The position numbers were made by a program, and so were the translations under genes. The notes beneath the pieces were generated by a model. It saw nothing but the letters and a program-made list of their open reading frames with translations, searched no databases and was not told the origin of the DNA. From Acidimicrobiia bacterium (GTDB lineage Bacteria > Actinomycetota > Acidimicrobiia > Acidimicrobiales > Bin134): a stretch of DNA of 64,000 nucleotides. The stretch spans positions 152,731 through 216,730 of the forward strand of contig JAJDYE010000016.1 in NCBI GenBank assembly GCA_022822905.1, read 5' to 3'. Below are positions 1 through 11,338 of this stretch, in pieces (the first letter of the stretch is position 1; each line of letters begins with the position of its first letter).

Positions 1-615
1 TCCGGCAACGACTACGGGCAGGTCGAGTTGCACTGATCGGTGGGTTGCACCGACGACCGCCGCCAGTTCTTTGTCCTTCAGGTACTGAAGTTCGTCTATG
101 GCCAGCAGCAATCCAGAGTCGCATGTATCTGCCGCCTGTCCGACTGCCACGAGCAGATCAGTGAGATCCTCAGAAAAAACACCTGAGTCCGCTTGACCGG
201 CCAGCGGCTCGACACTCACAGCGACGGATGAGCCATCAACGAAGGTGTGGGTAAACGACACGAGTACCGAGAGAGCCCGTCTCACCGCTGAGAGCGCGCG
301 GCGAGCCGCGCCTTGCTCAAGCTCCAGTAGAATTCTCCTCAAACGGACGGCTAGCAGCTCGGGAAAACCTCCGCCTTCCGATGCTTCGATGAATCCAACC
401 TTCACTTCTTGTCGCTCCGCAATCTGCGAGAAGCGGTTCAGGAGCACCGTTTTGCCGACTCCCCGCAAACCCAGAAGCACGCAACTCTTTCCGGGCCGCC
501 TGTCCAGGGCTCTTCGCACGGTTATCTCAAAGTCGTCAATAAGATCGTCACGCCCCACAAGTGCAGGAGGTGCCGATCCTGCTCCCGGCCGGTAGGGATT
601 TTCGAAGCGATCCAT
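1..615 (-). CDS. AAA+/STAND-type ATP-binding protein, N-terminal ~205 codons (3' end runs off the window)
   Basis: Absent from the ORF track because no stop lies in the window. Hand translation of the reverse strand from ATG at 615 gives MDRFENPYRPGAGSAPPALVGRDDLIDDFEITVRRALDRRPGKSCVLLGLRGVGKTVLLNRF. Walker A is GLRGVGKT (about 448-471) and Walker B-like LLLAIDE lies at about 85-105. Confidence 0.7.
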   Translation of the reverse strand, partial: MDRFENPYRPGAGSAPPALVGRDDLIDDFEITVRRALDRRPGKSCVLLGLRGVGKTVLLNRFSQIAERQEVKVGFIEASEGGGFPELLAVRLRRILLELEQGAARRALSAVRRALSVLVSFTHTFVDGSSVAVSVEPLAGQADSGVFSEDLTDLLVAVGQAADTCDSGLLLAIDELQYLKDKELAAVVGATHRSVQLDLPVVVAG

Positions 616-822
616 TTCAATAGATCTTATCTAATATTATGGAGTTTATCAACAGCAGCTATAACATTGGAATACGTTCGTCGAACATTGACTGATCCCC
701 GTCCCCAACTGCTGAATGACAGGGAAGACGCGGCTGACGTCGAAGCCTGTTGAGATGACAAGGGCGCAAGGTCAGCACTGTGTAGCCTTCCTTTGGCCAA
801 TCTCATTCAGGGGAGGACCTAG

Positions 823-3819
823 TTGAGCACGGAGTCGCACATCACCTCGAGCATGGTCGGGCCGATGCTGCGCACTTTGAGCCCCCGCTGGTCAGGGAAC
901 AGTTTCCGCATCGAGCAGACACAAGTGCTGGACGGAAAGCCGTCTGACAGGCCTGACATCCTGGTTTGCCCAAAAGGCCATGCCCCCGTGATCGTCGAAG
1001 CGAAGTTCGACCAGAACACGGCCGCCTTGGAAGACCAGTGCAGAGAGAGGCTTGAAACAACGGTCGGCGGGCAGCCTGTCGAAACGGTCATAATGCTCAC
1101 TTATCCCTCAGGCTGGGCATCAGAGACCGACGATGCCATTTGGGCCGCGCTGCAAGAAGAAGGCGGCGGAAGTTTGGCATGGGCCATGCTCACCCATGCT
1201 GGCCGCTTCCCCGACGACGGGTGGATTCCGACCTCTCTACACGGACTTGCCGACATCATCGAGTTGAGCGGAGTGTCTGCCTCCCAAGTCCAAGCCGCGG
1301 CCGATGTGCTCGCTGAAACCATCAGAAAGGCCGGCAGCCGCATTGAAGACACAGGCCAGGCCACCGCTATTGCCGAACTGCTGAGACAGCACCACGATCC
1401 CGAAGCGACCACCGCCCAAGCATCCCGCATGGCCGCGATGCTCGTCGTCAACGCGTTTGTATTCCAAGACATTCTTGCCACGCAGAAAGGGAGCTCCCGC
1501 CTAAACATTCGGCCAGTTCAGGCGTTGCGAAGCGACCTGACGATCGGGCCCGACGGCGAGGAGAAGCTCTTGCCGACCGTCGAAGCGGTGTGCTTGCAGT
1601 GGGCGCAAATACTGAAAACCGACTGGAGGCCAATCTACGGCATTGCCAAACGCATAGTCGAGACGCTGCCGCCGCTGGAGGCGCCGCTCATCTTGGACGA
1701 AACGATTGGGGGTGCTCGAAGAATGCTGTCCGCCAATCTGGGAAGCGTGCAAGACATGGCGGGCCAGATGTTCGGCAAAATGGTTACCGACAGGGACTTG
1801 CTAAAGGCCCACTACACGCGGCCGGAAGCTGCTGCCTTGCTGTCCGAGATTGCGGTGAGGCAACTCGATCGCCAGCGGATTTGGGGCGATCCCGACACAG
1901 TCACCGCGATCCGGGTTGCCGATTTCGCCTGCGGAACAGGGATGCTGCTGTCGGCCGCGTATCGGCGCATCGCATCTAGAATGAGGCGAAACGGTCTCGA
2001 CGACGCTGACATTCACAGACAGATGATCGAGGAATGCATCATCGGCTTGGACGTTCTACCGTCAGCAGCGCACCTCACTGCTATGGCAGTTTCAGCCGCC
2101 CACCCTGACCAGATTTACACCAAGTCCAACATTCACCTTGTGCCGTTCCGAGTCGAAACGAACACCAAGGGAAAGCAGGTGGCGAAAATTGGCTCCCTGG
2201 AACTGCTGGACACCGATGTAAAGGGCACCGCGTCCCTATTCGGTAGGCAATCAGATCAACAGGTCGCAGGAACACCGGACGGCGCTGAGGGCGGCGACTT
2301 CCTGGCCGTCATCGAAAGCGGATCCTGCGACCTGGTGATAATGAACCCTCCTTATGGTCGGGCGACGAAACACAGCCGAGCGTCAGCCACGCACGCTGGC
2401 CGGACAGTAGAACTAATACCGCCGTTCGCAGCGTTCGGAGCATCACCCGAAGACCAAAGAGCCATGGCTGACCGGCTGAACAAAATCGTAAAGCGCTCAC
2501 GGGGTGCTGCCCATGGGAACGCTGGGATGGGTTCCTATTTCTTCGACCTCGCACACGCGAAGGTGAAGCCTGGCGGCGTGGTGGCACTGGTGCTGCCCCT
2601 CACCTCTGCTACCGGCAAGGACTGGAGTGGGCTCAGAAGCCTCCTTGCATCCCATTACGACGACATCGTGTTCGTTGGATTAGCAGGAGCCACCGATGAT
2701 GAACGCCAATTCTCAGCCGACACTGGCATAGCCGAAACCCTGCTGATAGCAACAAGACGGCATCAGGCACGTGGGACAGACGACGAGCCCGCAAAAGTGA
2801 GGTGGGCGAGCCTAGATACGAGACCACCTTCTGAACCAGAAGCGGTGATCGCAGCCAGGATCGTCTCCGAAGATCGTCCTGAGAGCGCTTTCGCATCATT
2901 ACGCCTAGGTTCAACGGAGATCGGGCGTGTTCTCGTGGCTGGGATCGAAGATGGTGGACTGCTCGCTGTGAAGTCTCAGACGGTAGCCGAAGCGTGCGCG
3001 GGCATCACCGTCGGGGAATTGCGGCTTCAACGCTTCGCGCCAGCGAGCTTGCCGATTATCCCTTTGGGCGACGTAGGGAAAAGGGGGCCATACCACCTCG
3101 ACATTGCCGCCCGCCGAGACTCACAGGGATCGAAGAGCGACCGCGCCCCGTTCTTCATCGACGAACCAGGACCGCCAGGCAGCGATCCGTTCCCGATGCT
3201 CTGGGAGCACGACGCAGTTAGCGGGCGAGAATCGTCAATAGAAACACATCCAGACACAGCAGGGAGCATCAGAAAGGGGAAGAACGAGGCGGCTCGCCAA
3301 CTATTCAAGAAATGGTCTGTGCATCTCCACATCAACCAAGACTTTGACTTCGGGTCGCAGATGCTCGCCGCTGCTGTCACCCCGATGAAGGCTCTCGGTG
3401 GCAGAGCGTGGCCCGGTTTCAAACCGTCGAACGCTGCGCATACCGAGTTTCTTGCCCTGTGGATGAACACCACGCTCGGCCTCTTTGCCTTCTGGAGCAC
3501 TGGCAGCCGCCAGCAGAAACGGAGGTCGATACACACGGTAACCAGCCTCCCACAGCTACCTGTGTACGACCCGCGGTCACTTAGCACAGCCCAGGCCGAA
3601 AAGGCCGCCACCTTGTTCGACGAGATGAAGTCATGGAAGTTATTGCCAGCGAACCAGGCCGACATCGACGAGAACCGGGTACGCCTGGACCGTGAGGTTT
3701 TCTGCGGACTACTCGGCTTGCCGCTCCTATGCAATGCGACCGACGACGAGTTCATGGAAGCGCTGGCCGTGTTGAGAACCGCATGGTGCGCTGAACCGCA
3801 CATCGCCAGACGGGCCTAG
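823..3819 (+). CDS. Single-chain restriction-modification-like enzyme: N-terminal PD-(D/E)xK nuclease motif fused to gamma-class N6-adenine DNA methyltransferase (Type IIG/IIL-like)
   Basis: 998-aa ORF. The nuclease motif is PDILVCPKGHAPVIVEAKF (D45...E59-x-K61). SAM motif I is DFACGTGMLL (nt 1921-1950) and catalytic motif IV is NPPY in VIMNPPYGRA (nt 2344-2355). TTG start at 823 follows GGGAGGA (811-817). The ~450-aa C-terminal region is unassigned and may be a target-recognition domain. Confidence 0.75.
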   Translation: MSTESHITSSMVGPMLRTLSPRWSGNSFRIEQTQVLDGKPSDRPDILVCPKGHAPVIVEAKFDQNTAALEDQCRERLETTVGGQPVETVIMLTYPSGWASETDDAIWAALQEEGGGSLAWAMLTHAGRFPDDGWIPTSLHGLADIIELSGVSASQVQAAADVLAETIRKAGSRIEDTGQATAIAELLRQHHDPEATTAQASRMAAMLVVNAFVFQDILATQKGSSRLNIRPVQALRSDLTIGPDGEEKLLPTVEAVCLQWAQILKTDWRPIYGIAKRIVETLPPLEAPLILDETIGGARRMLSANLGSVQDMAGQMFGKMVTDRDLLKAHYTRPEAAALLSEIAVRQLDRQRIWGDPDTVTAIRVADFACGTGMLLSAAYRRIASRMRRNGLDDADIHRQMIEECIIGLDVLPSAAHLTAMAVSAAHPDQIYTKSNIHLVPFRVETNTKGKQVAKIGSLELLDTDVKGTASLFGRQSDQQVAGTPDGAEGGDFLAVIESGSCDLVIMNPPYGRATKHSRASATHAGRTVELIPPFAAFGASPEDQRAMADRLNKIVKRSRGAAHGNAGMGSYFFDLAHAKVKPGGVVALVLPLTSATGKDWSGLRSLLASHYDDIVFVGLAGATDDERQFSADTGIAETLLIATRRHQARGTDDEPAKVRWASLDTRPPSEPEAVIAARIVSEDRPESAFASLRLGSTEIGRVLVAGIEDGGLLAVKSQTVAEACAGITVGELRLQRFAPASLPIIPLGDVGKRGPYHLDIAARRDSQGSKSDRAPFFIDEPGPPGSDPFPMLWEHDAVSGRESSIETHPDTAGSIRKGKNEAARQLFKKWSVHLHINQDFDFGSQMLAAAVTPMKALGGRAWPGFKPSNAAHTEFLALWMNTTLGLFAFWSTGSRQQKRRSIHTVTSLPQLPVYDPRSLSTAQAEKAATLFDEMKSWKLLPANQADIDENRVRLDREVFCGLLGLPLLCNATDDEFMEALAVLRTAWCAEPHIARRA

Positions 3820-3932
3820 CTGCAACCACCGCTCTCCACGAACCATCCGATTCTCCTCGTCAATTCACCCTTTCCATCTCTCGGGTAACATTCACCGCTT
3901 TCCCCGTCGACACTGCTAGCGTTTCCTCTCCC

Positions 3933-5042
3933 ATGGCTGCTCCTCGCGACACGATATGGACGCTCGAACCGCACACTGCGGCAAAACATGACCTTCTCAG
4001 GCACTATCTGAAGGCTTGGTATCCGATTCTCGCACGACATTCAGGACGTGTCATTTTCCTGGACGGTTTCGCTGGACCAGGGATCTACAAAGGCGGTCAA
4101 TCTGGCTCACCAATAATCGCCATCAATACTCTTCTCGAACACAGCTATTTTCCAAATCTAAATGAATGCGAGTTTGTTTTCTTGTTTATCGAAAACAATA
4201 GCGAGAGACTAGGCCGTCTGGAGACCGAGCTACGTGGCCTGTACCCCCTACCATCCAATATCAATGTTGAGACAATCGAGGGAGAATTCCAAGATGTAAT
4301 TGAGGAAATAGTGGGAAAACTGGCAGAAGAAGAAGCGAGACTAGCTCCAACACTTGCATTCATTGACCCATTTGGCTTTTCCGGAGTTCCGATGGATACT
4401 ATTCGGCGATTTCTAAGCGCACCAAAGTGTGAATTGATAATGATCCTAATGGTAGATCATCTCAACCGATTCAAGTCACATAGCCCAGTGAAGATGCGGT
4501 TTGAAACTCTTTATGGAACTGTCAATTTTGACGGTGTGGAAGCTGCTGATGATGCTGTACCTGTGTTAGTTGAGAAATATAAGAGTCAACTGAAGAGAGT
4601 CGCTGGATTTTCGTTTGCATTAGACTTTCAAATGGTACGATCTGACGGTCACGATGCCTATTTCATAATTTACGCCACAAGGAACATCACTGGGGTCAGA
4701 AAATTCAAAGACGCAATGTGGACAGTCGATCCTGCAGGTGGTCAGCAATTCTCAGATATGCACTGGAACCAAGTGCCTCTGTTTACGGGGTCTAATGTAG
4801 ATACAACTTTGCTCCAACAAGAACTTAGCAAGGAATTTTCGGGGAAGACTGTGGGTATCGAAGAAATTGAAGAGTATGTTCTGCTCAAAACACCTTACAA
4901 AGAATCCCATATAAGGCGCATGACTTTGGTACCCTTGGAGACTGCAGGAAGAATAGTAGTAGTTGAATCTACCAAAAACCGCAGAATTAGCACTTTTCCC
5001 CCGGGAACGAAAATACTCTTTCAGCCCACTTTAGGCATCTGA
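3933..5042 (+). CDS. Three-Cys-motif partner protein TcmP family (TIGR04474-like; RlmJ-like methyltransferase-fold N-terminus)
   Basis: 369-aa ORF. N-terminus is WTLEPHTAAKHDLLRHYLKAWYPILARHSGRVIFLDGFAGPGIYKGGQSGSPIIA, followed by AFIDPFGF. It lies next to a DUF5131 gene and has markedly low G+C. Confidence 0.7.
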   Translation: MAAPRDTIWTLEPHTAAKHDLLRHYLKAWYPILARHSGRVIFLDGFAGPGIYKGGQSGSPIIAINTLLEHSYFPNLNECEFVFLFIENNSERLGRLETELRGLYPLPSNINVETIEGEFQDVIEEIVGKLAEEEARLAPTLAFIDPFGFSGVPMDTIRRFLSAPKCELIMILMVDHLNRFKSHSPVKMRFETLYGTVNFDGVEAADDAVPVLVEKYKSQLKRVAGFSFALDFQMVRSDGHDAYFIIYATRNITGVRKFKDAMWTVDPAGGQQFSDMHWNQVPLFTGSNVDTTLLQQELSKEFSGKTVGIEEIEEYVLLKTPYKESHIRRMTLVPLETAGRIVVVESTKNRRISTFPPGTKILFQPTLGI

Positions 5043-5875
5043 TCCCAAGTTCTTCCCTCAAGCTCGCGACCTGCCTCACTCTTACTGACTCTACGCATTA
5101 GGATAGGAGATCCAGGGATAGGGGTAGAGTCTGGTTCGGCGACAAACGTCCCATCATTCACCACTAGGACCGCATTATCATCGTCCCTCGGAGTCCATGC
5201 TCCCCATTGCTTGAAGAAGAATGCTGTATCGGACTCTAGGCATCTATCCCGAAGGTCAAACACCCATGAAGGATGCATAGGGCGGGCGTTCGCTCCCGAT
5301 TCACCTCCAGCTATGACCCAATCTATGGCATCAAGACTAAGTGAAGGCAACTCTCCCAAAAGAGGCTCAGCGGATACGAAGCGAATGACTGACGGCACTT
5401 CACTCAAGTGATCGACTCGAAAGCAATAGCGATCTGTCTCCACACTCACACCCATCCAAATATTCTCAGGCCAAGGAAGGCGTGTTGCAAGCTTGACAAG
5501 ACGTTGCGAACGTTTGGTGAGTACCTGATACGTATGTCGAGGAGTGTCAGCCATAACCTGAAATACATCTTCAATAAACTGATCAGGAACTTCAGGATGG
5601 AATAGATCACTCATGGAGTTCACGAAAATCACCCGTGGAGATTTCCAGCGATATGGAAGAGCTAGCTCATCCTTGTGAAGCGTCAAGGCAAATCCGGGAC
5701 CGCTGGTTCGTGGGTCTCCATCGTCTTGATATTTCGGATTGCCCATAGCCTTGAGCCGCTTGGCGAGGGTAAGCGCGTAGCAGTTGTCGCAGCCAGGCGA
5801 TACCTGGTCGCATCCCGTTGTGGGATTCCAAGTAGCCTCGGTCCACTCGATCGTTGACCGGTCGCTCACAGGCAC
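5021..5875 (-). CDS. Phage Gp37/Gp68 family protein (DUF5131, PF07505), three-Cys motif protein
   Basis: 284-aa ORF. N-terminus is STIEWTEATWNPTTGCDQVSPGCDNCYA (Cx6CxxC, nt about 5780-5812). GTG start at 5875 follows GAGGAAG. The 3' end overlaps TcmP by 22 nt in convergent orientation. Confidence 0.75.
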   Translation of the reverse strand: MPVSDRSTIEWTEATWNPTTGCDQVSPGCDNCYALTLAKRLKAMGNPKYQDDGDPRTSGPGFALTLHKDELALPYRWKSPRVIFVNSMSDLFHPEVPDQFIEDVFQVMADTPRHTYQVLTKRSQRLVKLATRLPWPENIWMGVSVETDRYCFRVDHLSEVPSVIRFVSAEPLLGELPSLSLDAIDWVIAGGESGANARPMHPSWVFDLRDRCLESDTAFFFKQWGAWTPRDDDNAVLVVNDGTFVAEPDSTPIPGSPILMRRVSKSEAGRELEGRTWDQMPKVG

Positions 5876-6038
5876 CTTCCTCGTTCAGCGCAGATTTGGC
5901 GGGATACAGCATAGAGAAGGAGAGCGACAGTTGACCTGTTGGATGAATGGTCAAGGATCCTGAAGAAGGAACAGGTGCAGCAGCGACGGCTAGTTTTCGT
6001 CAGGGGTGGACACCAGATGTTCACGGTGGTTTACAGAC

Positions 6039-7193
6039 TTAGGTAGACGTTTCCACGTGGGCTTTGATGCCGTTTACTACTGCCTGCATGTTGGTTCGGT
6101 GGACTTTGAGGCGGTTGGCGATGATTCGGGGCTCTTTTTCGGGGTTCTGCTCGATGAACATGTTCAGGCCGGAGGGGCCGGGGCCGAGGATGAGGCGGTA
6201 GATGAGGCGGGTGCCTCCGCCCATGAGGGGCTGGAGTTCGAAGCGCCACCTTGCGCCGGGGTTGTCGGGGTCGGAAGTACACCAGCCGAAAGCCACCGGC
6301 TCCTGGCACACGTCTACGAAGCAGGGGACCTCCCAGTCGCCCATCACTTCTAGGTGGTTGCGGCCGGTGAATGTGGCGCCCAGCGAGGGGCCGTCGAAAC
6401 CGTCGTCCCAGGTGGCGCCGGTGAACTCGTCGGAGAACTGGGCGGGGAGGTCGATGTCGGTGACCGCGGCCCACACCTCGTCGATCCCAGCGGCGATGTC
6501 GGTTTCCACCATCGTGCCGGGGCCGTCGGCCATCTTCACGGGGGTTCCCGGACCGGACTCGTAGGTGCGGCCGTAGCCGTCGAAGAAAGTGATGTTTCGG
6601 GCTGGATCGCGGCGGGCGGGACGGAAATCGGTGCCCTTGGTCCACGCCACCGGGAACATGGCGATCTCTGTGATCTCCTCGGGGATGCCGAGCAGCTCCT
6701 TCAACTCGGGTGCCTTGGCCAACACGGCGGTGGTCCAGGCGGTACCCAGTCCCCGGGCTCGCAGGGCCACACAGAAGCTCCACCCGCTCTGGATCACCGA
6801 GTCGAACAGGCCGGGAGCGCCACTGCCGTCGTGGCGGCCCATGATGGTGGGTATGACGATCACCGGCACTTCGGCCAAGTGCTCCACCAAGTAGGCCGAC
6901 GAGCTCACTGTCCGAGCCCGGGGGTGGTCGGTGCCCTCCAAGCGGTCGCTGGCCTCCAGCATGAAACCGCCCACTACTTCGCGGTACAGCCGGGCCAGCT
7001 CCTGTTTGATCTCAGGGTCGCGCACCACGATCCACCGCCGGCTGGTTTGGTTGCCCCCGGTGGGTGCCTGCTCGGCGATGTCGATGCAGTCGAGGATGAT
7101 CTGATCATCCACCGGCCGCTCTAGATCCAGCCGCTTCCGCACCGCCCTCGTTGTGGTCAGCGCCAGGTCCACCGCTTCAGTGTCGATGCTCAT
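6039..7193 (-). CDS. Nitroreductase family protein fused to a C-terminal SRPBCC (polyketide cyclase/START-like) domain
   Basis: 384 aa. The N-terminal half reads RAVRKRLDLERPVDDQIILDCIDIAEQAPTGGNQTSRRWIVV, typical of nitroreductases. The C-terminal ~150 aa (ETDIAAGIDEVWAAVTDIDLPAQFSDEF...) is SRPBCC-like. The ATG overlaps the stop of the upstream gene by 4 nt. Confidence 0.65.
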   Translation of the reverse strand: MSIDTEAVDLALTTTRAVRKRLDLERPVDDQIILDCIDIAEQAPTGGNQTSRRWIVVRDPEIKQELARLYREVVGGFMLEASDRLEGTDHPRARTVSSSAYLVEHLAEVPVIVIPTIMGRHDGSGAPGLFDSVIQSGWSFCVALRARGLGTAWTTAVLAKAPELKELLGIPEEITEIAMFPVAWTKGTDFRPARRDPARNITFFDGYGRTYESGPGTPVKMADGPGTMVETDIAAGIDEVWAAVTDIDLPAQFSDEFTGATWDDGFDGPSLGATFTGRNHLEVMGDWEVPCFVDVCQEPVAFGWCTSDPDNPGARWRFELQPLMGGGTRLIYRLILGPGPSGLNMFIEQNPEKEPRIIANRLKVHRTNMQAVVNGIKAHVETST

Positions 7194-8471: not shown

Positions 8472-9923
8472 CTAGCCGCGGCGGGAATTGAGGAGCTGGG
8501 TGACGGCCTTTCCGTCGGCTCGGCCCTGGGTGGCCTTCATCACCTGCCCGACGAAGAAGCCGGTCAGCTTGGCGTCGCCATCGCAAAAGCGGGACCACTC
8601 ATCAGCGTGCTCGGCAATGAGGCTGTCCACCAGGGACTCCAGCTCGTCGGTGTCCATGGCCTCGAATCCCAGGGTCTGGGCCGCGTCTTGAGGCGATCCC
8701 CCGCCCTCCACCAGCACAGCCAGCACTTTCTTGGCCTGGGTAGCGGTCAGCTCGCCCGCCTCCTCCATGCCAACCAGTTCGGCGAGCGCCTCGGGGGTCA
8801 GCTGGCCAGACCCATCGGCCAAGTTCTGCACGATGTGGGTCATCACCCGCTCTGCTGCCCCTCCCCCGCTGATGGCCGCCAACGCCAGCTCGTCCATCGA
8901 GCGCTCGACGGCCAGCGCAATGTTGTCGATGTCCACCGATGGGGCGGCCTCCGCCAAATTCATCCGGCGGTCCCGGGGCAAGGCAGGCAGCGCATGGCGA
9001 ATCTGCTCCACCCACTCGGTGCTGGGGTTGAGCGGCAGCAGATCGGGCTCGGGGAAATAGCGGTAGTCGTAGTCCTCCTCCTTGGAGCGCAAAGCATGAG
9101 TGCGCCCGTCATCCTCGTTCCAGTGCCGGGTTTGCTGCTCTATGGCCTGCCCGCTGGTCAATTGGTCGATTTGGCGACGGGCCTCATACTCGATGGCCCG
9201 ACCCAAAGAGCGCAGCGAGTTCACGTTCTTGATCTCGCACCGGGTGCCCAGCCGGTCGCTTCCCACCGGCCTAACCGAAACATTGCAATCCACCCGCAGG
9301 GAACCCTCCTCCATCTTGCCGTCGGACGCCCCCACCGCCACCAGGATGGACCGCAATTCAGAAACGTATTGGCGGGCCTCCTCGGCTGAACGCAGTTCGG
9401 GATGGCCCACGATCTCGATGAGCGGCACCCCGGCCCGGTTGTAGTCCACCAGCGAGTACCCGGCCTCGTGGATGCGCCCTCCCCCGCCGATATGGACGGT
9501 CTTGCCGGTGTCCTCCTCCAGATGGGCCCGCTCGATGCCGACCCGCTTGCCCGAGGGCAGCTCCAGCCAGCCGTCCACGTTGATGGGCTGGTCGTATTGG
9601 CTGATCTGAAAGTCCTTGGGCATGTCGGGGTAGAAGTAGTTCTTGCGGGCGAACACCGATGGCTGAATCCGGCAGTTGAGAGCCAGGCCCACCCGAATGG
9701 CCAGCTCCACCGCTTTCTCGTTGAGCACGGGAAGCGAACCGGGCAAGCCGAGCGACACCGGGTCGATGTGGGTGTTGGGCTCGCCGCCGAACCGGTTGGG
9801 GCTGGCGCTGAACAGCTTGGTGGCAGTGGCCAACTCGGCGTGGACTTCCAGGCCCACCACTGTCTCCCACTCGGTGTCAGCCGGGGCACCGAGTCCGGGG
9901 ATGGTCTGGGCTTCGTCGCTCAT
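8472..9923 (-). CDS. gatB: Asp-tRNA(Asn)/Glu-tRNA(Gln) amidotransferase subunit B
   Basis: Conserved GatB N-terminus [10 protein letters not shown]...WETVVGLEVHAELAT. Start trimmed to the ATG at 9923, which forms an ATGA overlap with the gatA stop. The upstream 86 codons of the track ORF are Arg/Gly-rich read-through. Confidence 0.9.
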   Translation of the reverse strand: MSDEAQTIPGLGAPADTEWETVVGLEVHAELATATKLFSASPNRFGGEPNTHIDPVSLGLPGSLPVLNEKAVELAIRVGLALNCRIQPSVFARKNYFYPDMPKDFQISQYDQPINVDGWLELPSGKRVGIERAHLEEDTGKTVHIGGGGRIHEAGYSLVDYNRAGVPLIEIVGHPELRSAEEARQYVSELRSILVAVGASDGKMEEGSLRVDCNVSVRPVGSDRLGTRCEIKNVNSLRSLGRAIEYEARRQIDQLTSGQAIEQQTRHWNEDDGRTHALRSKEEDYDYRYFPEPDLLPLNPSTEWVEQIRHALPALPRDRRMNLAEAAPSVDIDNIALAVERSMDELALAAISGGGAAERVMTHIVQNLADGSGQLTPEALAELVGMEEAGELTATQAKKVLAVLVEGGGSPQDAAQTLGFEAMDTDELESLVDSLIAEHADEWSRFCDGDAKLTGFFVGQVMKATQGRADGKAVTQLLNSRRG

Positions 9924-11338
9924 CACAAACTCGCTTCCAGCACCGCGGCGGCCCGGAACATGACCGGTTCGCCCAGAGCGGGGGCCATGATCTGCACGCC
10001 CACCGGCAGGCCGTCGTCTCCGACGCCGTAGGGCACCGACATGGCGGCCTGTCCGGTGAGGTTCACCGGCACGGTACACACGTCGCTCATGTACATGGCC
10101 ATGGGGTCGGCGGTGCGCTCTCCCAGCGGGAACGCGGTGGTGGGCGACGTGGGACTCACCAGCAGGTCGAACCGCTCCCACACGGAGGCGAAGTCATTGA
10201 TGATGAGCGTGCGCACCTTTTGGGCCTTGCCGTAGTAGGCGTCGTAGTACCCGGCCGACAGGGCGTAGGTGCCGATCATGATGCGGCGCTTGACCTCATC
10301 GCCGAAGCCAGCCGAGCGGGTGGCGGTGTTCATGTCGGGAGTGCTGGGCCCGTCCACCCGCAACCCGTAGCGGACGCCGTCGTAGCGGGCCAGGTTGCTG
10401 GACGCCTCGGCCGGTGCGATCAGGTAGTAGGCCGATAGTCCGTAGACCGCAGCCGGCGCGCTGGCCTCGGCGACGCTGGCCCCGGCCGATTCCAGCGCTC
10501 TCACCGCAGCCTGCAATTGTGCGGCCACATCGGGGGCGATGCCGTTGCCGCTCAACTCAGTCAGCACTCCCACCCTGAGCCCATCAATCCCGTCGGCCAG
10601 CGTGTGCGACACCGGGGGCTGGGGTTCGCTGATGCTGGTGGAGTCGCGGGCATCGGGGCCGCTGATCACGTCCAATACGGCCGCCGCATCGGCCACCGTG
10701 GTGGTGAATGGACCGATCTGGTCCAGCGACGATGCGAACGCCACCAGGCCGTAGCGGGACACCAGGCCGTAGGTGGGCTTGACTCCGACCACCCCGCACA
10801 GCGCGGCGGGCTGGCGGATTGACCCTCCGGTGTCGCTGCCCAGCGCCACCGGGGCGAACCCGGCGGCCACCGCAGCGGCGCTGCCCCCCGATGAGCCCCC
10901 CGGCACGCGGCTGGTGTCGCACGGGTTGCAGGTGGGGCCGAACGCCGAGTTCTCGGTGGAACTGCCCATGGCGAACTCGTCCATGTTGGTCTTGCCCACC
11001 ACCACGGCACCGGCATTGTGGAGCTGCTCCACCACGGAGGCGTCATAGGGCGGTGCCCAGTCCTCCAAGATGCGAGAGGAGCAGGTGGTGGCCAGCCCTC
11101 GGGTACACAGGTTGTCCTTGAGGGCGACGGGGACGCCGGCCAAGGGGCCGGGATCGCTGCCGGCGGCCACTGCGCCATCGATCTCGTCGGCGCGAGCCCG
11201 GGCCTGGTCTGCGGCCACCAGGTTGAAGGCATGGATGTCAGCGTCACCGCCGGCGATCACATCCAAGTGCTCATCGACCACTGAGCGAGCCGACCGCTGC
11301 CCTGATCGCACGGCGGCGGCAATCTCGACTGCGGTCAC
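9923..11338 (-). CDS. gatA: Asp-tRNA(Asn)/Glu-tRNA(Gln) amidotransferase subunit A
   Basis: 471 aa with the amidase signature [14 protein letters not shown]...[13 protein letters not shown]. It sits between gatC and gatB. Confidence 0.9.

What the first reader, a model, noticed from the sequence alone, without database searches (positions are those of the whole stretch)
1..5954. Compositionally foreign four-gene island (STAND ATPase, nuclease-methyltransferase fusion, TcmP, DUF5131): candidate undescribed defence/DNA-modification system
Seen in sequence:
- An ATPase gene (minus strand, Walker A/B, truncated by the window edge) is divergent from a 998-aa PD-(D/E)xK + NPPY methyltransferase gene across a 207-bp AT-rich spacer (616-822).
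- TcmP starts 113 bp after the fusion gene.
- A DUF5131 three-Cys gene converges on TcmP with a 22-nt overlap.
- Hand counts of single 60-nt lines give about 28-48% G+C at 4.1-5.5 kb, against about 63% in gatB. Region 823-3819 looks intermediate, so the island appears mosaic.
- The next gene (6039 onward) returns to host-like composition.

None of the four genes is housekeeping. The combination of an NTPase, a nuclease/methylase and a putative modification pair is the architecture typical of defence islands. I do not know of a described system built from these four parts, and the island may continue beyond position 1.
Basis: partly seen in the sequence, partly recalled or inferred. Interest (0 to 1): 0.85.

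Follow-up and report, generated by a model that had tools for sequence, protein, structure and literature searches.

The report
Patchwork defence island, not one system
The low-GC island is real, but its four genes are three unrelated mobile modules sitting side by side: a lone ATPase, a self-contained restriction-and-methylation enzyme, and an already catalogued but uncharacterised radical-SAM/methyltransferase pair.

Summary
The island is larger than the window shows, about 7.9 kb between a MatE gene and a nitroreductase gene.

- Among 80 genome loci with a homolog of the 998-aa protein, no neighbour is conserved. TcmP+DUF5131 are nearby in only 2 loci and a related ATPase in 4.
- Among 80 metagenome loci with TcmP, none has the methylase or the ATPase. 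DUF5131 is adjacent in 50 of 65 informative loci.

The 998-aa protein looks like a solitary Type IIG (BpuSI/MmeI-like) restriction-modification enzyme. It has an N-terminal PD-x13-ExK nuclease, a gamma-class N6-adenine methylase (DFACGTG, NPPY) and a variable C-terminal recognition region. It belongs to a family without a curated profile that is abundant in sponge-symbiont genomes.

TcmP+DUF5131 match PADLOC candidates PDC-M30/M41. TcmP models as a Trm1/RlmJ-like methyltransferase with a winged helix. DUF5131 keeps a CX6CX2C plus GGE radical-SAM signature.

The ATPase is a solitary, plasmid-borne AAA_16 protein.

Verdict: a composite accessory island built from known kinds of parts. Interest is modest.

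The parts
1..615 (-). N-terminal 205 codons of a 394-aa AAA_16 P-loop ATPase. The C-terminal ~70 aa look like a winged helix by eye. The gene continues left of the window (full gene at L001 4346-5530). It is a solitary accessory gene.
   Evidence: Translation with Walker A/B. AAA_16 at 9e-15 and 4e-14. Full gene found on L001. Homologs of ~50% identity on 118 plasmids across phyla, with no conserved neighbour. Only weak PADLOC matches: mad8 2e-5, PDC-S27 5e-3.
616..822 (.). 207-bp divergent intergenic spacer, relatively AT-rich, between the ATPase and the restriction-methylase gene. It presumably holds both promoters (not tested).
   Evidence: Sequence read directly; GGGGAGGA lies upstream of the TTG start at 823. 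G+C is 0.53 in the windows covering it.
823..3819 (+). 998-aa single-chain Type IIG-like restriction-modification enzyme, with no curated family profile.
   Evidence: ORF. 619 homologs, mostly ~950-1050 aa and called 'hypothetical protein'. AlphaFold2 model with pLDDT 74. Best Foldseek PDB hits are BpuSI Type IIG (E 4e-15, full length), PglX/BrxX, DrdV Type IIL, CamA, BsaXI and LlaBIII.
823..1242 (+). N-terminal PD-(D/E)xK nuclease domain (aa 1-140). P44-D45 at 952-957, E59 at 997-999, K61 at 1003-1005.
   Evidence: Motif RPD45-x13-E59-A-K61. D45 and E59 are invariant in 84 of 84 family members; position 61 is E in 78 and K in 6. The predicted alpha-beta-beta-beta-alpha-beta topology places D45 before strand 2 and ExK on strand 3, with pLDDT 83-92. 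No sequence-profile match to any known nuclease.
1813..2742 (+). Gamma-class N6-adenine DNA methyltransferase domain (aa 331-640). Motif I D367-F-A-C-G-T-G373 at 1921-1941; motif IV N508-P-P-Y511 at 2344-2355.
   Evidence: DxACGTG and NPP[FY] are invariant in 84 of 84. The profile aligns motifs I-II to BrxX/PglX and motif IV to M.TaqI. Weak PADLOC matches to MTase_II, PglX and REase_MTase_IIG.
2743..3819 (+). C-terminal region (aa 641-998), the presumed target-recognition domain. Its most variable part is aa 641-800.
   Evidence: Lowest family conservation at aa 641-720. Tandem paralogs in L043 and L026 diverge mainly here: 0.71 and 0.32 identity against 0.95-0.99 and 0.6-0.7 elsewhere.
3933..5042 (+). 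TcmP (369 aa): class I SAM-methyltransferase fold (Trm1/RlmJ-like) plus a C-terminal winged helix. It is the partner of the radical-SAM-like protein.
   Evidence: TIGR04474 at 3e-52. PADLOC PDC-M30A at 9e-57. GMT-wHTH at 6e-5. AlphaFold2 pLDDT 89. Foldseek hits Trm1 and RlmJ at E 4e-6 to 7e-6. Invariant D44-x-FAGPG50, E87 and D145-P-F-G148 in 32 of 32.
5021..5875 (-). DUF5131 / Gp37-Gp68 protein (284 aa), a radical-SAM-like enzyme. The three-Cys motif C22-x6-C29-x2-C32 is at 5780-5812.
   Evidence: PF07505 at 5.5e-102. PADLOC PDC-M41B at 2e-104 and PDC-M30B at 1.5e-100. phrog_2045 at 2e-101. C22, C29, C32 and G190-G-E-S-G194 are invariant in 46 of 46. DUF5131 is listed as a radical SAM subgroup next to spore photoproduct lyase in PMC9477430.
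5876..6038 (.). Right edge of the island: spacer before the host nitroreductase-SRPBCC gene (6039-7193, minus strand).
   Evidence: G+C rises from ~0.50 to 0.62-0.68. Nitroreductase family at 3e-14. The same junction is conserved in L003.

Best explanation
Window 1-5954 is the right-hand three quarters of a ~7.9-kb accessory island. It sits between a MatE transporter gene and a nitroreductase gene in a sponge-associated Acidimicrobiia genome (closest genome match: Ca. Poriferisocius). The island is a patchwork of at least three functionally independent, separately acquired modules.

(1) A solitary 394-aa AAA_16 ATPase (with an apparent C-terminal winged helix) of a plasmid-borne family. Its role is unknown. 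I infer a nucleotide-dependent DNA-binding switch or sensor.

(2) A single-polypeptide Type IIG-like restriction-modification enzyme.
- Shown: the domain order, the conserved catalytic motifs and the structural resemblance to BpuSI.
- Inferred: the variable C-terminal region reads an asymmetric DNA site, the gamma-class NPPY domain N6-methylates an adenine in host copies of that site, and the N-terminal PD-x13-ExK nuclease cuts unmethylated incoming DNA at a distance.

(3) The TcmP/DUF5131 pair, equal to PADLOC candidates PDC-M30/M41.
- Shown: TcmP has a methyltransferase fold and intact motifs, and its partner is nearly always a radical-SAM-type protein.
- Inferred: a [4Fe-4S]/SAM radical enzyme of the spore-photoproduct-lyase neighbourhood works with an amino-methyltransferase-like protein carrying a winged helix. 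Together they chemically modify nucleic acid, most likely DNA, and the module is expressed for the benefit of the carrier cell.

The modules are neighbours because accessory and defence genes pile up at the same permissive spot, not because they work together.
For: Independence of the modules:
- tblastn of all island proteins against 80 methylase-family loci finds TcmP and DUF5131 in 2 loci, the ATPase in 4, and p209/p79/p98 in none.
- All-against-all clustering of 1378 ORFs finds no neighbour family in more than 12 of 80 loci.
- No conserved small upstream ORF exists.
- Homologs P0005 and P0012 are single insertions among housekeeping genes.
- Of 80 TcmP loci, none carries the methylase or the ATPase. 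DUF5131 is adjacent in 50 of the 65 loci with room to judge.
- The ATPase is solitary on plasmids.

Separate acquisition: there are three G+C levels, 56-61%, 41-52% and 42-50%, against a host at 63-72%.

Age of the island: Ca. Poriferisocius L003 has the same ATPase-methylase-TcmP-DUF5131 block at ~86% nucleotide identity, the same as the flanks. The leftmost segment there is replaced by a DUF222-HNH gene.

Type IIG reading. The published architectures of MmeI (PMC2582602) and BpuSI (PD-x15-ExK, PMC3185434), as listed, agree.

TcmP/DUF5131 reading.
- Alternative TcmP partners are canonical radical SAM proteins of the SPL/PA0069/Rv2578c type.
- In the temperate Gordonia phage Easley the pair lies between the integrase and the immunity repressor, with TcmP co-oriented directly behind the repressor gene.
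Against: - No activity has been measured for any of the parts.
- The nuclease domain has no sequence-profile match to known nucleases. In 78 of 84 relatives the motif is ExE, not ExK.
- The model of the 998-aa protein is only moderately confident (pLDDT 74), and Foldseek TM-scores are low (0.3-0.4) because of its multi-domain geometry.
- One independent lineage (L068, Vicinamibacterales) also places DUF5131-TcmP directly next to a methylase homolog. That is more than random placement predicts and leaves room for occasional cooperation.
- A related ATPase is directly adjacent to the methylase homolog in L004.
- DUF5131 occurs without TcmP in most of 179 phages, so the pair's function may differ from that of DUF5131 alone.
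Confidence: 0.8

Rival explanations
1. The ATPase, the nuclease-methylase, TcmP and DUF5131 form one integrated four-gene defence or DNA-modification system. The ATPase senses or powers, the fusion protein restricts, and the pair installs an additional self-mark.
For: The four genes are contiguous. ATPase and methylase share a divergent 207-bp control region. The whole block is conserved at ~86% identity in Ca. Poriferisocius L003.
Against: - L003 is the same lineage and its flanks are equally conserved, so it is vertical inheritance rather than independent co-occurrence.
- No other locus among 80 methylase loci or 80 TcmP loci has all four families.
- The parts have different G+C levels.
- Each part occurs alone elsewhere.
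Confidence: 0.04
2. Partial coupling. The TcmP/DUF5131 pair and the Type IIG-like enzyme cooperate when they are together. For example, the pair might add a second modification that tunes or shields restriction. They would form an optional three-gene combination.
For: There are two independent adjacencies with different gene orders. In the window lineage the order is methylase-> TcmP-> <-DUF5131. In L068 it is <-TcmP <-DUF5131 methylase-> inside a lower-GC patch.
Against: - 77 of 79 other methylase loci lack the pair, and 80 of 80 TcmP loci lack the methylase.
- Defence genes are known to cluster, which by itself explains rare repeated adjacency.
- In the window the two modules differ in G+C by ~12 points.
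Confidence: 0.08
3. The TcmP/DUF5131 module is not host defence. It is instead a self-protection or repair function of mobile elements: DNA hypermodification to evade restriction, or SPL-like repair of DNA lesions.
For: - DUF5131 is found in 179 phage genomes and matches phrog_2045 at 2e-101.
- The pair occurs on plasmids and on a conjugative P. aeruginosa plasmid carrying ICE-type transfer genes.
- The radical SAM neighbourhood includes spore photoproduct lyase, a DNA repair enzyme.
- The module has no obvious toxic effector.
Against: - In Gordonia phage Easley the pair sits in the integrase-repressor cassette, co-oriented with the repressor. That region is normally expressed in lysogens rather than during lytic DNA synthesis.
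- PADLOC models it as a defence candidate.
- A P. aeruginosa survey reported PDC-M30 more often in phage-resistant strains (68.8% of 32), which is only a correlation (PMC10855318).
- In S. meliloti TcmP is listed with the Hna defence gene, under consecutive odd locus tags SMa2243 and SMa2245 (PMC12445080).
Confidence: 0.3
4. The 998-aa protein is only an orphan methyltransferase whose N-terminal domain is a non-catalytic relic. The island would then contain no restriction activity.
For: The N-terminal domain matches no nuclease profile. Most relatives have ExE instead of ExK. Distant plasmid relatives lacking this N-terminus are annotated simply as N-6 DNA methylase.
Against: - D45 and E59 are invariant in 84 of 84 members across at least 10 phyla, and E87 in 81 of 84. 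Such conservation is not expected for a relic.
- The window protein has the canonical PD...ExK motif.
- The fold topology fits the nuclease core.
- The best structural match is a bifunctional Type IIG enzyme.
Confidence: 0.15

Closest known systems
Type IIG / IIL single-chain restriction-modification enzymes (BpuSI, MmeI, DrdV)
   Same: One ~900-1000-aa polypeptide with the order N-terminal PD-(D/E)xK nuclease, helical connector, gamma-class N6-adenine methylase (NPPY), C-terminal recognition domain. It is encoded as a solitary gene. BpuSI is the best PDB match (E 4e-15). BpuSI has PD-x15-ExK (PMC3185434); this protein has PD-x13-ExK.
   Different: - Sequence similarity is confined to the methylase motifs. 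The Eco57I Pfam match is below threshold, no NCBIfam model applies, and PADLOC REase_MTase_IIG scores only 7e-5.
- The nuclease domain has no profile match.
- Most family members carry ExE.
- Cleavage, recognition site and strand modification are untested.
BREX PglX/BrxX methyltransferase
   Same: Related gamma-class methylase core. Motifs I-II align (E 0.003) and there is structural similarity (E 1.5e-11).
   Different: PglX has no N-terminal nuclease and works only with PglZ, BrxC, BrxL and other partners. None of those genes is present here or near the 80 homologs.
PADLOC phage-defence candidates PDC-M30 and PDC-M41 (TcmP + DUF5131; TIGR04474 + PF07505)
   Same: Both window proteins match the models end to end: PDC-M30A 9e-57, PDC-M30B 1.5e-100, PDC-M41B 2e-104. 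The genes are adjacent, as in 50 of 65 metagenome loci.
   Different: Nothing distinguishes the window pair from the family. The family itself is only a bioinformatic candidate, and I found no experimental paper on it.
Radical SAM enzymes of the spore-photoproduct-lyase neighbourhood
   Same: DUF5131 is listed as a radical SAM subgroup (Megacluster-5-2) beside SPL (5-3) in PMC9477430. It has an invariant three-Cys motif and a GGE-like motif. TcmP's alternative partners hit SPL/PA0069/Rv2578c models.
   Different: The Cys spacing is CX6CX2C rather than CX3CX2C. DUF5131 does not hit the Pfam Radical_SAM model, and its only NCBIfam hit (TIGR04471, radical SAM mobile pair protein A) is far below cut-off. 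No substrate is known.
MADS (methylation-associated defence system)
   Same: Weak PADLOC matches of the ATPase to mad8 (2e-5) and of the methylase to mad2 (2e-6).
   Different: The matches cover only generic P-loop and methylase cores. None of the island genes matches any other mad model, and MADS, as I recall it, is an eight-gene system. The ATPase-methylase pairing is not conserved.

Membership tests
Type IIG restriction-modification enzyme | Nuclease and methyltransferase in one polypeptide, with a recognition domain, encoded without a separate methylase or specificity gene | tested here: met
   Domain order from motifs and the AlphaFold2 model. Full-length structural match to BpuSI. No conserved partner gene in 80 loci.
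Type IIG restriction-modification enzyme | Gamma-class amino-methyltransferase motifs: motif I FxGxG before motif IV NPP[YF], with the recognition domain C-terminal | tested here: met
   DFACGTG at aa 367-373 and NPPY at aa 508-511, both invariant in 84 of 84. The variable C-terminal region is aa 641-800.
Type IIG restriction-modification enzyme | Catalytically competent PD-(D/E)xK nuclease domain | tested here: inconclusive
   The PD45-x13-E59-x-K61 motif, the conservation and the predicted topology all fit. No profile match to known nucleases exists, and most relatives have ExE.
Type IIG restriction-modification enzyme | Site-specific DNA cleavage and SAM-dependent methylation of the same site | not testable with these tools
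   Requires enzyme assays or methylome sequencing.
TcmP / DUF5131 pair (TIGR04474 + PF07505; PADLOC PDC-M30/M41) | TcmP scores above the curated cut-off of TIGR04474 | tested here: met
   178 bits against a cut-off of 53.
TcmP / DUF5131 pair (TIGR04474 + PF07505; PADLOC PDC-M30/M41) | Adjacent PF07505 protein with the three-Cys motif | tested here: met
   340.9 bits against a cut-off of 28.9. The genes are convergent with a 22-nt overlap. C22, C29 and C32 are present and invariant in the family.
TcmP / DUF5131 pair (TIGR04474 + PF07505; PADLOC PDC-M30/M41) | Anti-phage activity | not testable with these tools
   It is only a candidate in PADLOC. No experimental report was found in the library.
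Radical SAM superfamily (for DUF5131) | Three-Cys [4Fe-4S] site plus SAM-binding GGE-type motif in a partial TIM barrel | tested here: inconclusive
   CX6CX2C and GGESG are invariant, and the superfamily listing is in PMC9477430. There is no Pfam Radical_SAM hit, only a weak TIGR04471 match (5.5e-18, far below cut-off). No structure was predicted.
STAND NTPase (for the ATPase) | NACHT/NB-ARC-type NTPase with helical arm plus C-terminal sensor repeats | tested here: not met
   The protein is 394 aa with AAA_16 only. nSTAND1 scores E 0.006, below cut-off. The C-terminus has no repeat domain; it reads as a short helix-turn-helix-like stretch.
BREX | PglX accompanied by PglZ, BrxC and other core genes | tested here: not met
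   Only a weak PglX motif-I match (NF033452 6e-4, cut-off 500 bits). No PglZ or BrxC is present in the island or in the 80 loci.
MADS | Multi-gene mad cluster | tested here: not met
   Only partial mad2 and mad8 matches. None of the other island proteins matches a mad model.

The most novel reading that the evidence does not exclude
The TcmP/radical-SAM pair could be a truly new kind of immunity. In this reading, a DNA-directed radical SAM enzyme and a Trm1/RlmJ-like methyltransferase with a winged helix install or exploit an unusual nucleic-acid modification. The module would be expressed from prophages and islands to block incoming phage. In the sponge-symbiont lineages seen here (window and L068) it might be combined with a private family of single-chain restriction enzymes. 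The evidence does not exclude this. It would not be a discovery of this window, however, because the pair is already a listed PADLOC candidate.
Probability: 0.3. Interest if true: 0.65.

Novelty: new member of a known kind. Interest (0 to 1): 0.3.

Why it matters
The result warns against reading contiguity plus foreign composition as evidence of a system. The four genes here fall apart as soon as neighbourhoods are compared.

Two leads remain useful:
- A large, unannotated family of Type IIG-like enzymes. It is spread by horizontal transfer through sponge symbionts of at least ten phyla, and is sometimes present as near-identical tandem copies. It could yield new restriction specificities and help explain gene-flow barriers inside sponge microbiomes.
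- The TcmP/radical-SAM pairing. It is consistent enough, across three different radical-SAM partner families, to deserve biochemical work as a possible new nucleic-acid modification chemistry.

Tried and rejected
- **Conserved partner of the methylase.** I looked for any conserved neighbour by clustering ORFs from 80 loci and running phmmer on the small upstream ORFs. None was found.
- **Second gene of an ATPase operon.** I tested whether the 209-aa membrane-anchored protein left of the ATPase (L001 3688-4317) plays this role. It has no homolog in any locus and no family match, and in L003 it is replaced by a DUF222-HNH gene.
- **MADS and BREX.** The matches are to generic cores only.
- **Nuclease confirmation by sequence.** A 16-sequence N-terminal profile found nothing in the PDB or Pfam. 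The best match was HSDR_N at E 0.1, which is not significant.
- **Island borders.** I looked for attachment-site repeats, tRNA genes or integrases. Only short chance-level repeats and no tRNA were found.
- **Literature.** Searches for DUF5131, TcmP, PF07505, TIGR04474, PDC-M30/M41 and Gp37/Gp68 gave only passing mentions. My recollection that Trm1 uses a DPFG motif IV could not be verified in the library, so I treat it as a lead only.
- **Distant plasmid relatives.** Relatives of the methylase that lack the nuclease (Aminobacter, Sulfuricystis) were inspected. They sit among plasmid transfer and maintenance genes and are too distant (24% identity) to inform this locus.
Full report
**1. Observation**

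- A minus-strand P-loop ATPase gene runs off the window at 1-615.
- A 207-bp spacer (616-822) separates it from a 998-aa ORF at 823-3819.
- TcmP (3933-5042) starts 113 bp after that ORF.
- A DUF5131 gene (5021-5875, minus strand) converges on TcmP with a 22-nt overlap.

Profile searches confirm the families. AAA_16 scores 9e-15, TIGR04474 TcmP 3e-52 and PF07505 DUF5131 5.5e-102. The methylase gives only sub-threshold Eco57I/PglX-type matches.

Composition is clearly foreign and mosaic. The host is 63-72% G+C, the ATPase plus methylase are 53-62%, and TcmP plus DUF5131 are 43-52%. Host values return from about 6200.

**2. Extent of the island**

The exact 998-aa protein occurs on a 59-kb metagenome scaffold (L001), which extends the view leftwards.
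- The ATPase is 394 aa.
- Beyond it lies a 1.3-kb segment of 42-50% G+C with small unannotatable ORFs, including a 209-aa protein with an N-terminal hydrophobic stretch that looks like a membrane anchor.
- A host MatE gene follows.

The island is therefore about 7.9 kb, between MatE and a nitroreductase gene. It has no tRNA, integrase or flanking repeats.

A complete Ca. Poriferisocius chromosome (L003) carries the same ATPase-methylase-TcmP-DUF5131 block at about 86% nucleotide identity. That equals the identity of the flanking host genes, so the block is old and vertically inherited in this genus. Only the leftmost segment differs, being replaced by a DUF222-HNH gene.

**3. Is it one system?**

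No. I fetched 80 genome loci encoding relatives of the 998-aa protein (31-91% identity, at least 10 phyla).
- tblastn with every island protein finds TcmP and DUF5131 in only two loci: L003, which is the same lineage, and L068.
- It finds an ATPase relative within 10 kb in four loci, in inconsistent positions.
- Clustering all 1378 ORFs of these loci gives no neighbour family in more than 12 of 80 loci.
- There is no conserved small upstream gene.
- Two homologs of 52-55% identity are single-gene insertions among housekeeping genes.

From the other side, 80 metagenome loci with TcmP contain the methylase family zero times and the ATPase family zero times. DUF5131 is adjacent in 50 of the 65 loci with enough flanking sequence.

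The ATPase family has about 50% identical members on 118 plasmids from many phyla. In the four plasmids I inspected it sits alone among variable neighbours.

**4. The 998-aa protein**

It belongs to a full-length family of at least 619 proteins, nearly all called hypothetical.

Motifs:
- The family alignment shows DFACGTG (motif I), a GxDVxPxAxHLT motif II region and NPP[YF] (motif IV). All are invariant in 84 of 84 members.
- The N-terminal residues D45 and E59 are also invariant in 84 of 84.
- The window protein reads RPD45-x13-E59-A-K61, a canonical PD-(D/E)xK motif. Most relatives have ExE at that position.

Structure:
- The AlphaFold2 model has pLDDT 74, and 83-92 in the N-terminal domain.
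- It gives the alpha-beta-beta-beta-alpha-beta nuclease core, with D45 ahead of strand 2 and ExK on strand 3.
- Foldseek against the PDB puts the Type IIG enzyme BpuSI first (E 4e-15, aligned over the full length). PglX/BrxX, the Type IIL enzyme DrdV, CamA, BsaXI and LlaBIII follow.

The least conserved stretch is aa 641-800. Diverged tandem paralogs in L043 and L026 differ mainly there, as expected of a recognition domain.

Published descriptions match this layout. MmeI has an N-terminal endonuclease, a central methylase and a C-terminal recognition domain in a single protein (PMC2582602). BpuSI has a PD-x15-ExK motif (PMC3185434).

I therefore read the gene as a solitary Type IIG-like restriction-modification enzyme. 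Cleavage itself remains inferred, because the nuclease domain has no sequence-profile match.

**5. TcmP and DUF5131**

Both match PADLOC candidate models end to end: PDC-M30A at 9e-57, PDC-M30B at 1.5e-100 and PDC-M41B at 2e-104.

TcmP:
- It models with high confidence (pLDDT 89) as a class I SAM-methyltransferase fold.
- Its closest PDB matches are tRNA m2,2G methylase Trm1 and rRNA m6A methylase RlmJ.
- Invariant residues sit where methylase motifs belong: D44-x-FAGPG after strand 1, E87 at the end of strand 2, and D145-P-F-G after strand 4. The last is the position of the (D/N)PP(Y/F) motif of amino-methyltransferases.
- The C-terminus is a winged helix (GMT-wHTH).

DUF5131:
- It keeps C22-x6-C29-x2-C32 and a GGESG motif in 46 of 46 members.
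- It is listed as a radical SAM subgroup next to spore photoproduct lyase (PMC9477430).
- Where TcmP lacks DUF5131, its neighbour is a canonical radical SAM protein of the SPL/PA0069/Rv2578c type, seen in 13 plus 5 loci. The functional link is therefore between TcmP and a radical SAM enzyme.

Distribution:
- The pair occurs on actinobacterial and proteobacterial plasmids with otherwise unrelated neighbours.
- It also occurs in temperate Gordonia phages. There it lies between integrase and immunity repressor, with TcmP directly behind and co-oriented with the repressor gene. That placement suggests expression in lysogens.
- DUF5131 alone is much commoner in phages, with 179 records against 12 for TcmP.

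I found no experimental study of the pair. The only mentions are a correlative one in P. aeruginosa (PMC10855318) and a listing of TcmP beside the Hna defence gene in S. meliloti (PMC12445080).

My committed reading is a two-enzyme nucleic-acid modification module, probably acting on DNA and probably serving the carrier cell. The target and the outcome are inferred, not shown.

**6. The ATPase**

It is a 394-aa AAA_16 P-loop protein. Its C-terminus reads as a helix-turn-helix or winged-helix stretch; this is my reading of the sequence, not a profile hit. It is not a STAND protein in the strict sense and matches no defence model convincingly. Its wide, solitary occurrence on plasmids marks it as another independent accessory gene.

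**7. Residual doubt**

L068, a Vicinamibacterales MAG, places DUF5131-TcmP immediately upstream of, and divergent from, a 34% identical methylase homolog inside a lower-GC patch. This is a second, independent adjacency. It fits defence-island clustering, but it keeps a small probability for occasional cooperation between the two modules.

**8. Verdict**

The feature is real, but it is a composite accessory or defence island made of known kinds of parts. The proposed four-gene system is not supported.

Novelty is limited to membership. The window adds a new, unprofiled family within the Type IIG architecture and one more instance of an uncharacterised PADLOC candidate pair. Interest is modest. 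The most valuable leads are the sponge-symbiont spread and tandem copies of the restriction-enzyme family, and the unexplored chemistry of the TcmP/radical-SAM pairs.

Noticed in passing
L003-L082 (genome loci with homologs of window 823-3819): Judging by record titles and isolate names, most of the 80 best genome hits of the 998-aa family appear to be sponge-associated MAGs. They span at least 10 phyla, including Acidimicrobiia, Chloroflexota, Alpha- and Gammaproteobacteria, Acidobacteriota, Latescibacterota, Cyanobacteria and Gemmatimonadota. One Hyphomonadaceae genome has four separate loci. This suggests extensive horizontal spread within sponge microbiomes.
   Followed up: partly
L032 6108-19167; L059 1437-12856; L011 9953-15844: The ~3-kb methylase-family gene occurs as near-identical tandem copies (98-100% amino-acid identity): four, three and two copies respectively. 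This is either real gene amplification or a long-read assembly artefact.
   Followed up: partly
L068 7898-12910: There is a second, independent adjacency of DUF5131-TcmP to a methylase-family gene, with a different gene order, inside a lower-GC patch of a Vicinamibacterales MAG.
   Followed up: partly
L001 3046-4373 versus L003 7096-8637: The leftmost island segment is variable between two species of the genus. In L001 it holds small low-GC ORFs, including a 209-aa protein with an N-terminal hydrophobic stretch. In L003 it holds a 443-aa DUF222-HNH endonuclease gene.
   Followed up: yes
L133 3899-4771; L142 7169-7999 (and 16 further metagenome loci): Where TcmP lacks DUF5131, it is paired with canonical radical SAM proteins of the spore-photoproduct-lyase / PA0069 / Rv2578c type. 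TcmP's partner is therefore nearly always a radical-SAM-type protein.
   Followed up: partly
L176 (Gordonia phage Easley) 4998-6865: The phage copy of the pair (gp38 DUF5131, gp39 TcmP annotated as 'methyltransferase') lies between the tyrosine integrase gp35 and the immunity repressor gp40. This is the lysogenic cassette, where prophage-encoded defence genes of actinobacteriophages usually sit.
   Followed up: partly
L093 12989-17044 and four other TcmP loci; S. meliloti SMa2243/SMa2245: A large helicase with an MrfA-type zinc-binding domain recurs near TcmP in 5 metagenome loci. In S. meliloti, TcmP is listed with the Hna helicase defence gene under consecutive odd locus tags (PMC12445080).
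   Followed up: no
window 6039-7193 (-): The first host gene after the island encodes a 384-aa fusion of a nitroreductase domain with an SRPBCC/polyketide-cyclase-like domain.
   Followed up: no
window 8472-10181 (-): The mechanical gatB ORF is 569 aa, whereas the gene called on the scaffold is 483 aa. The first ~86 codons are an Arg/Gly/His-rich extension that is probably not translated.
   Followed up: no
L173 6410-9253; L174 6377-9292: Distant relatives (24% identity) of the methylase and C-terminal regions, with a different N-terminus, sit among transfer and maintenance genes of two mobilizable plasmids, near zincin-like metallopeptidase and PRTRC genes. They may be plasmid anti-restriction methylases.
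   Followed up: no
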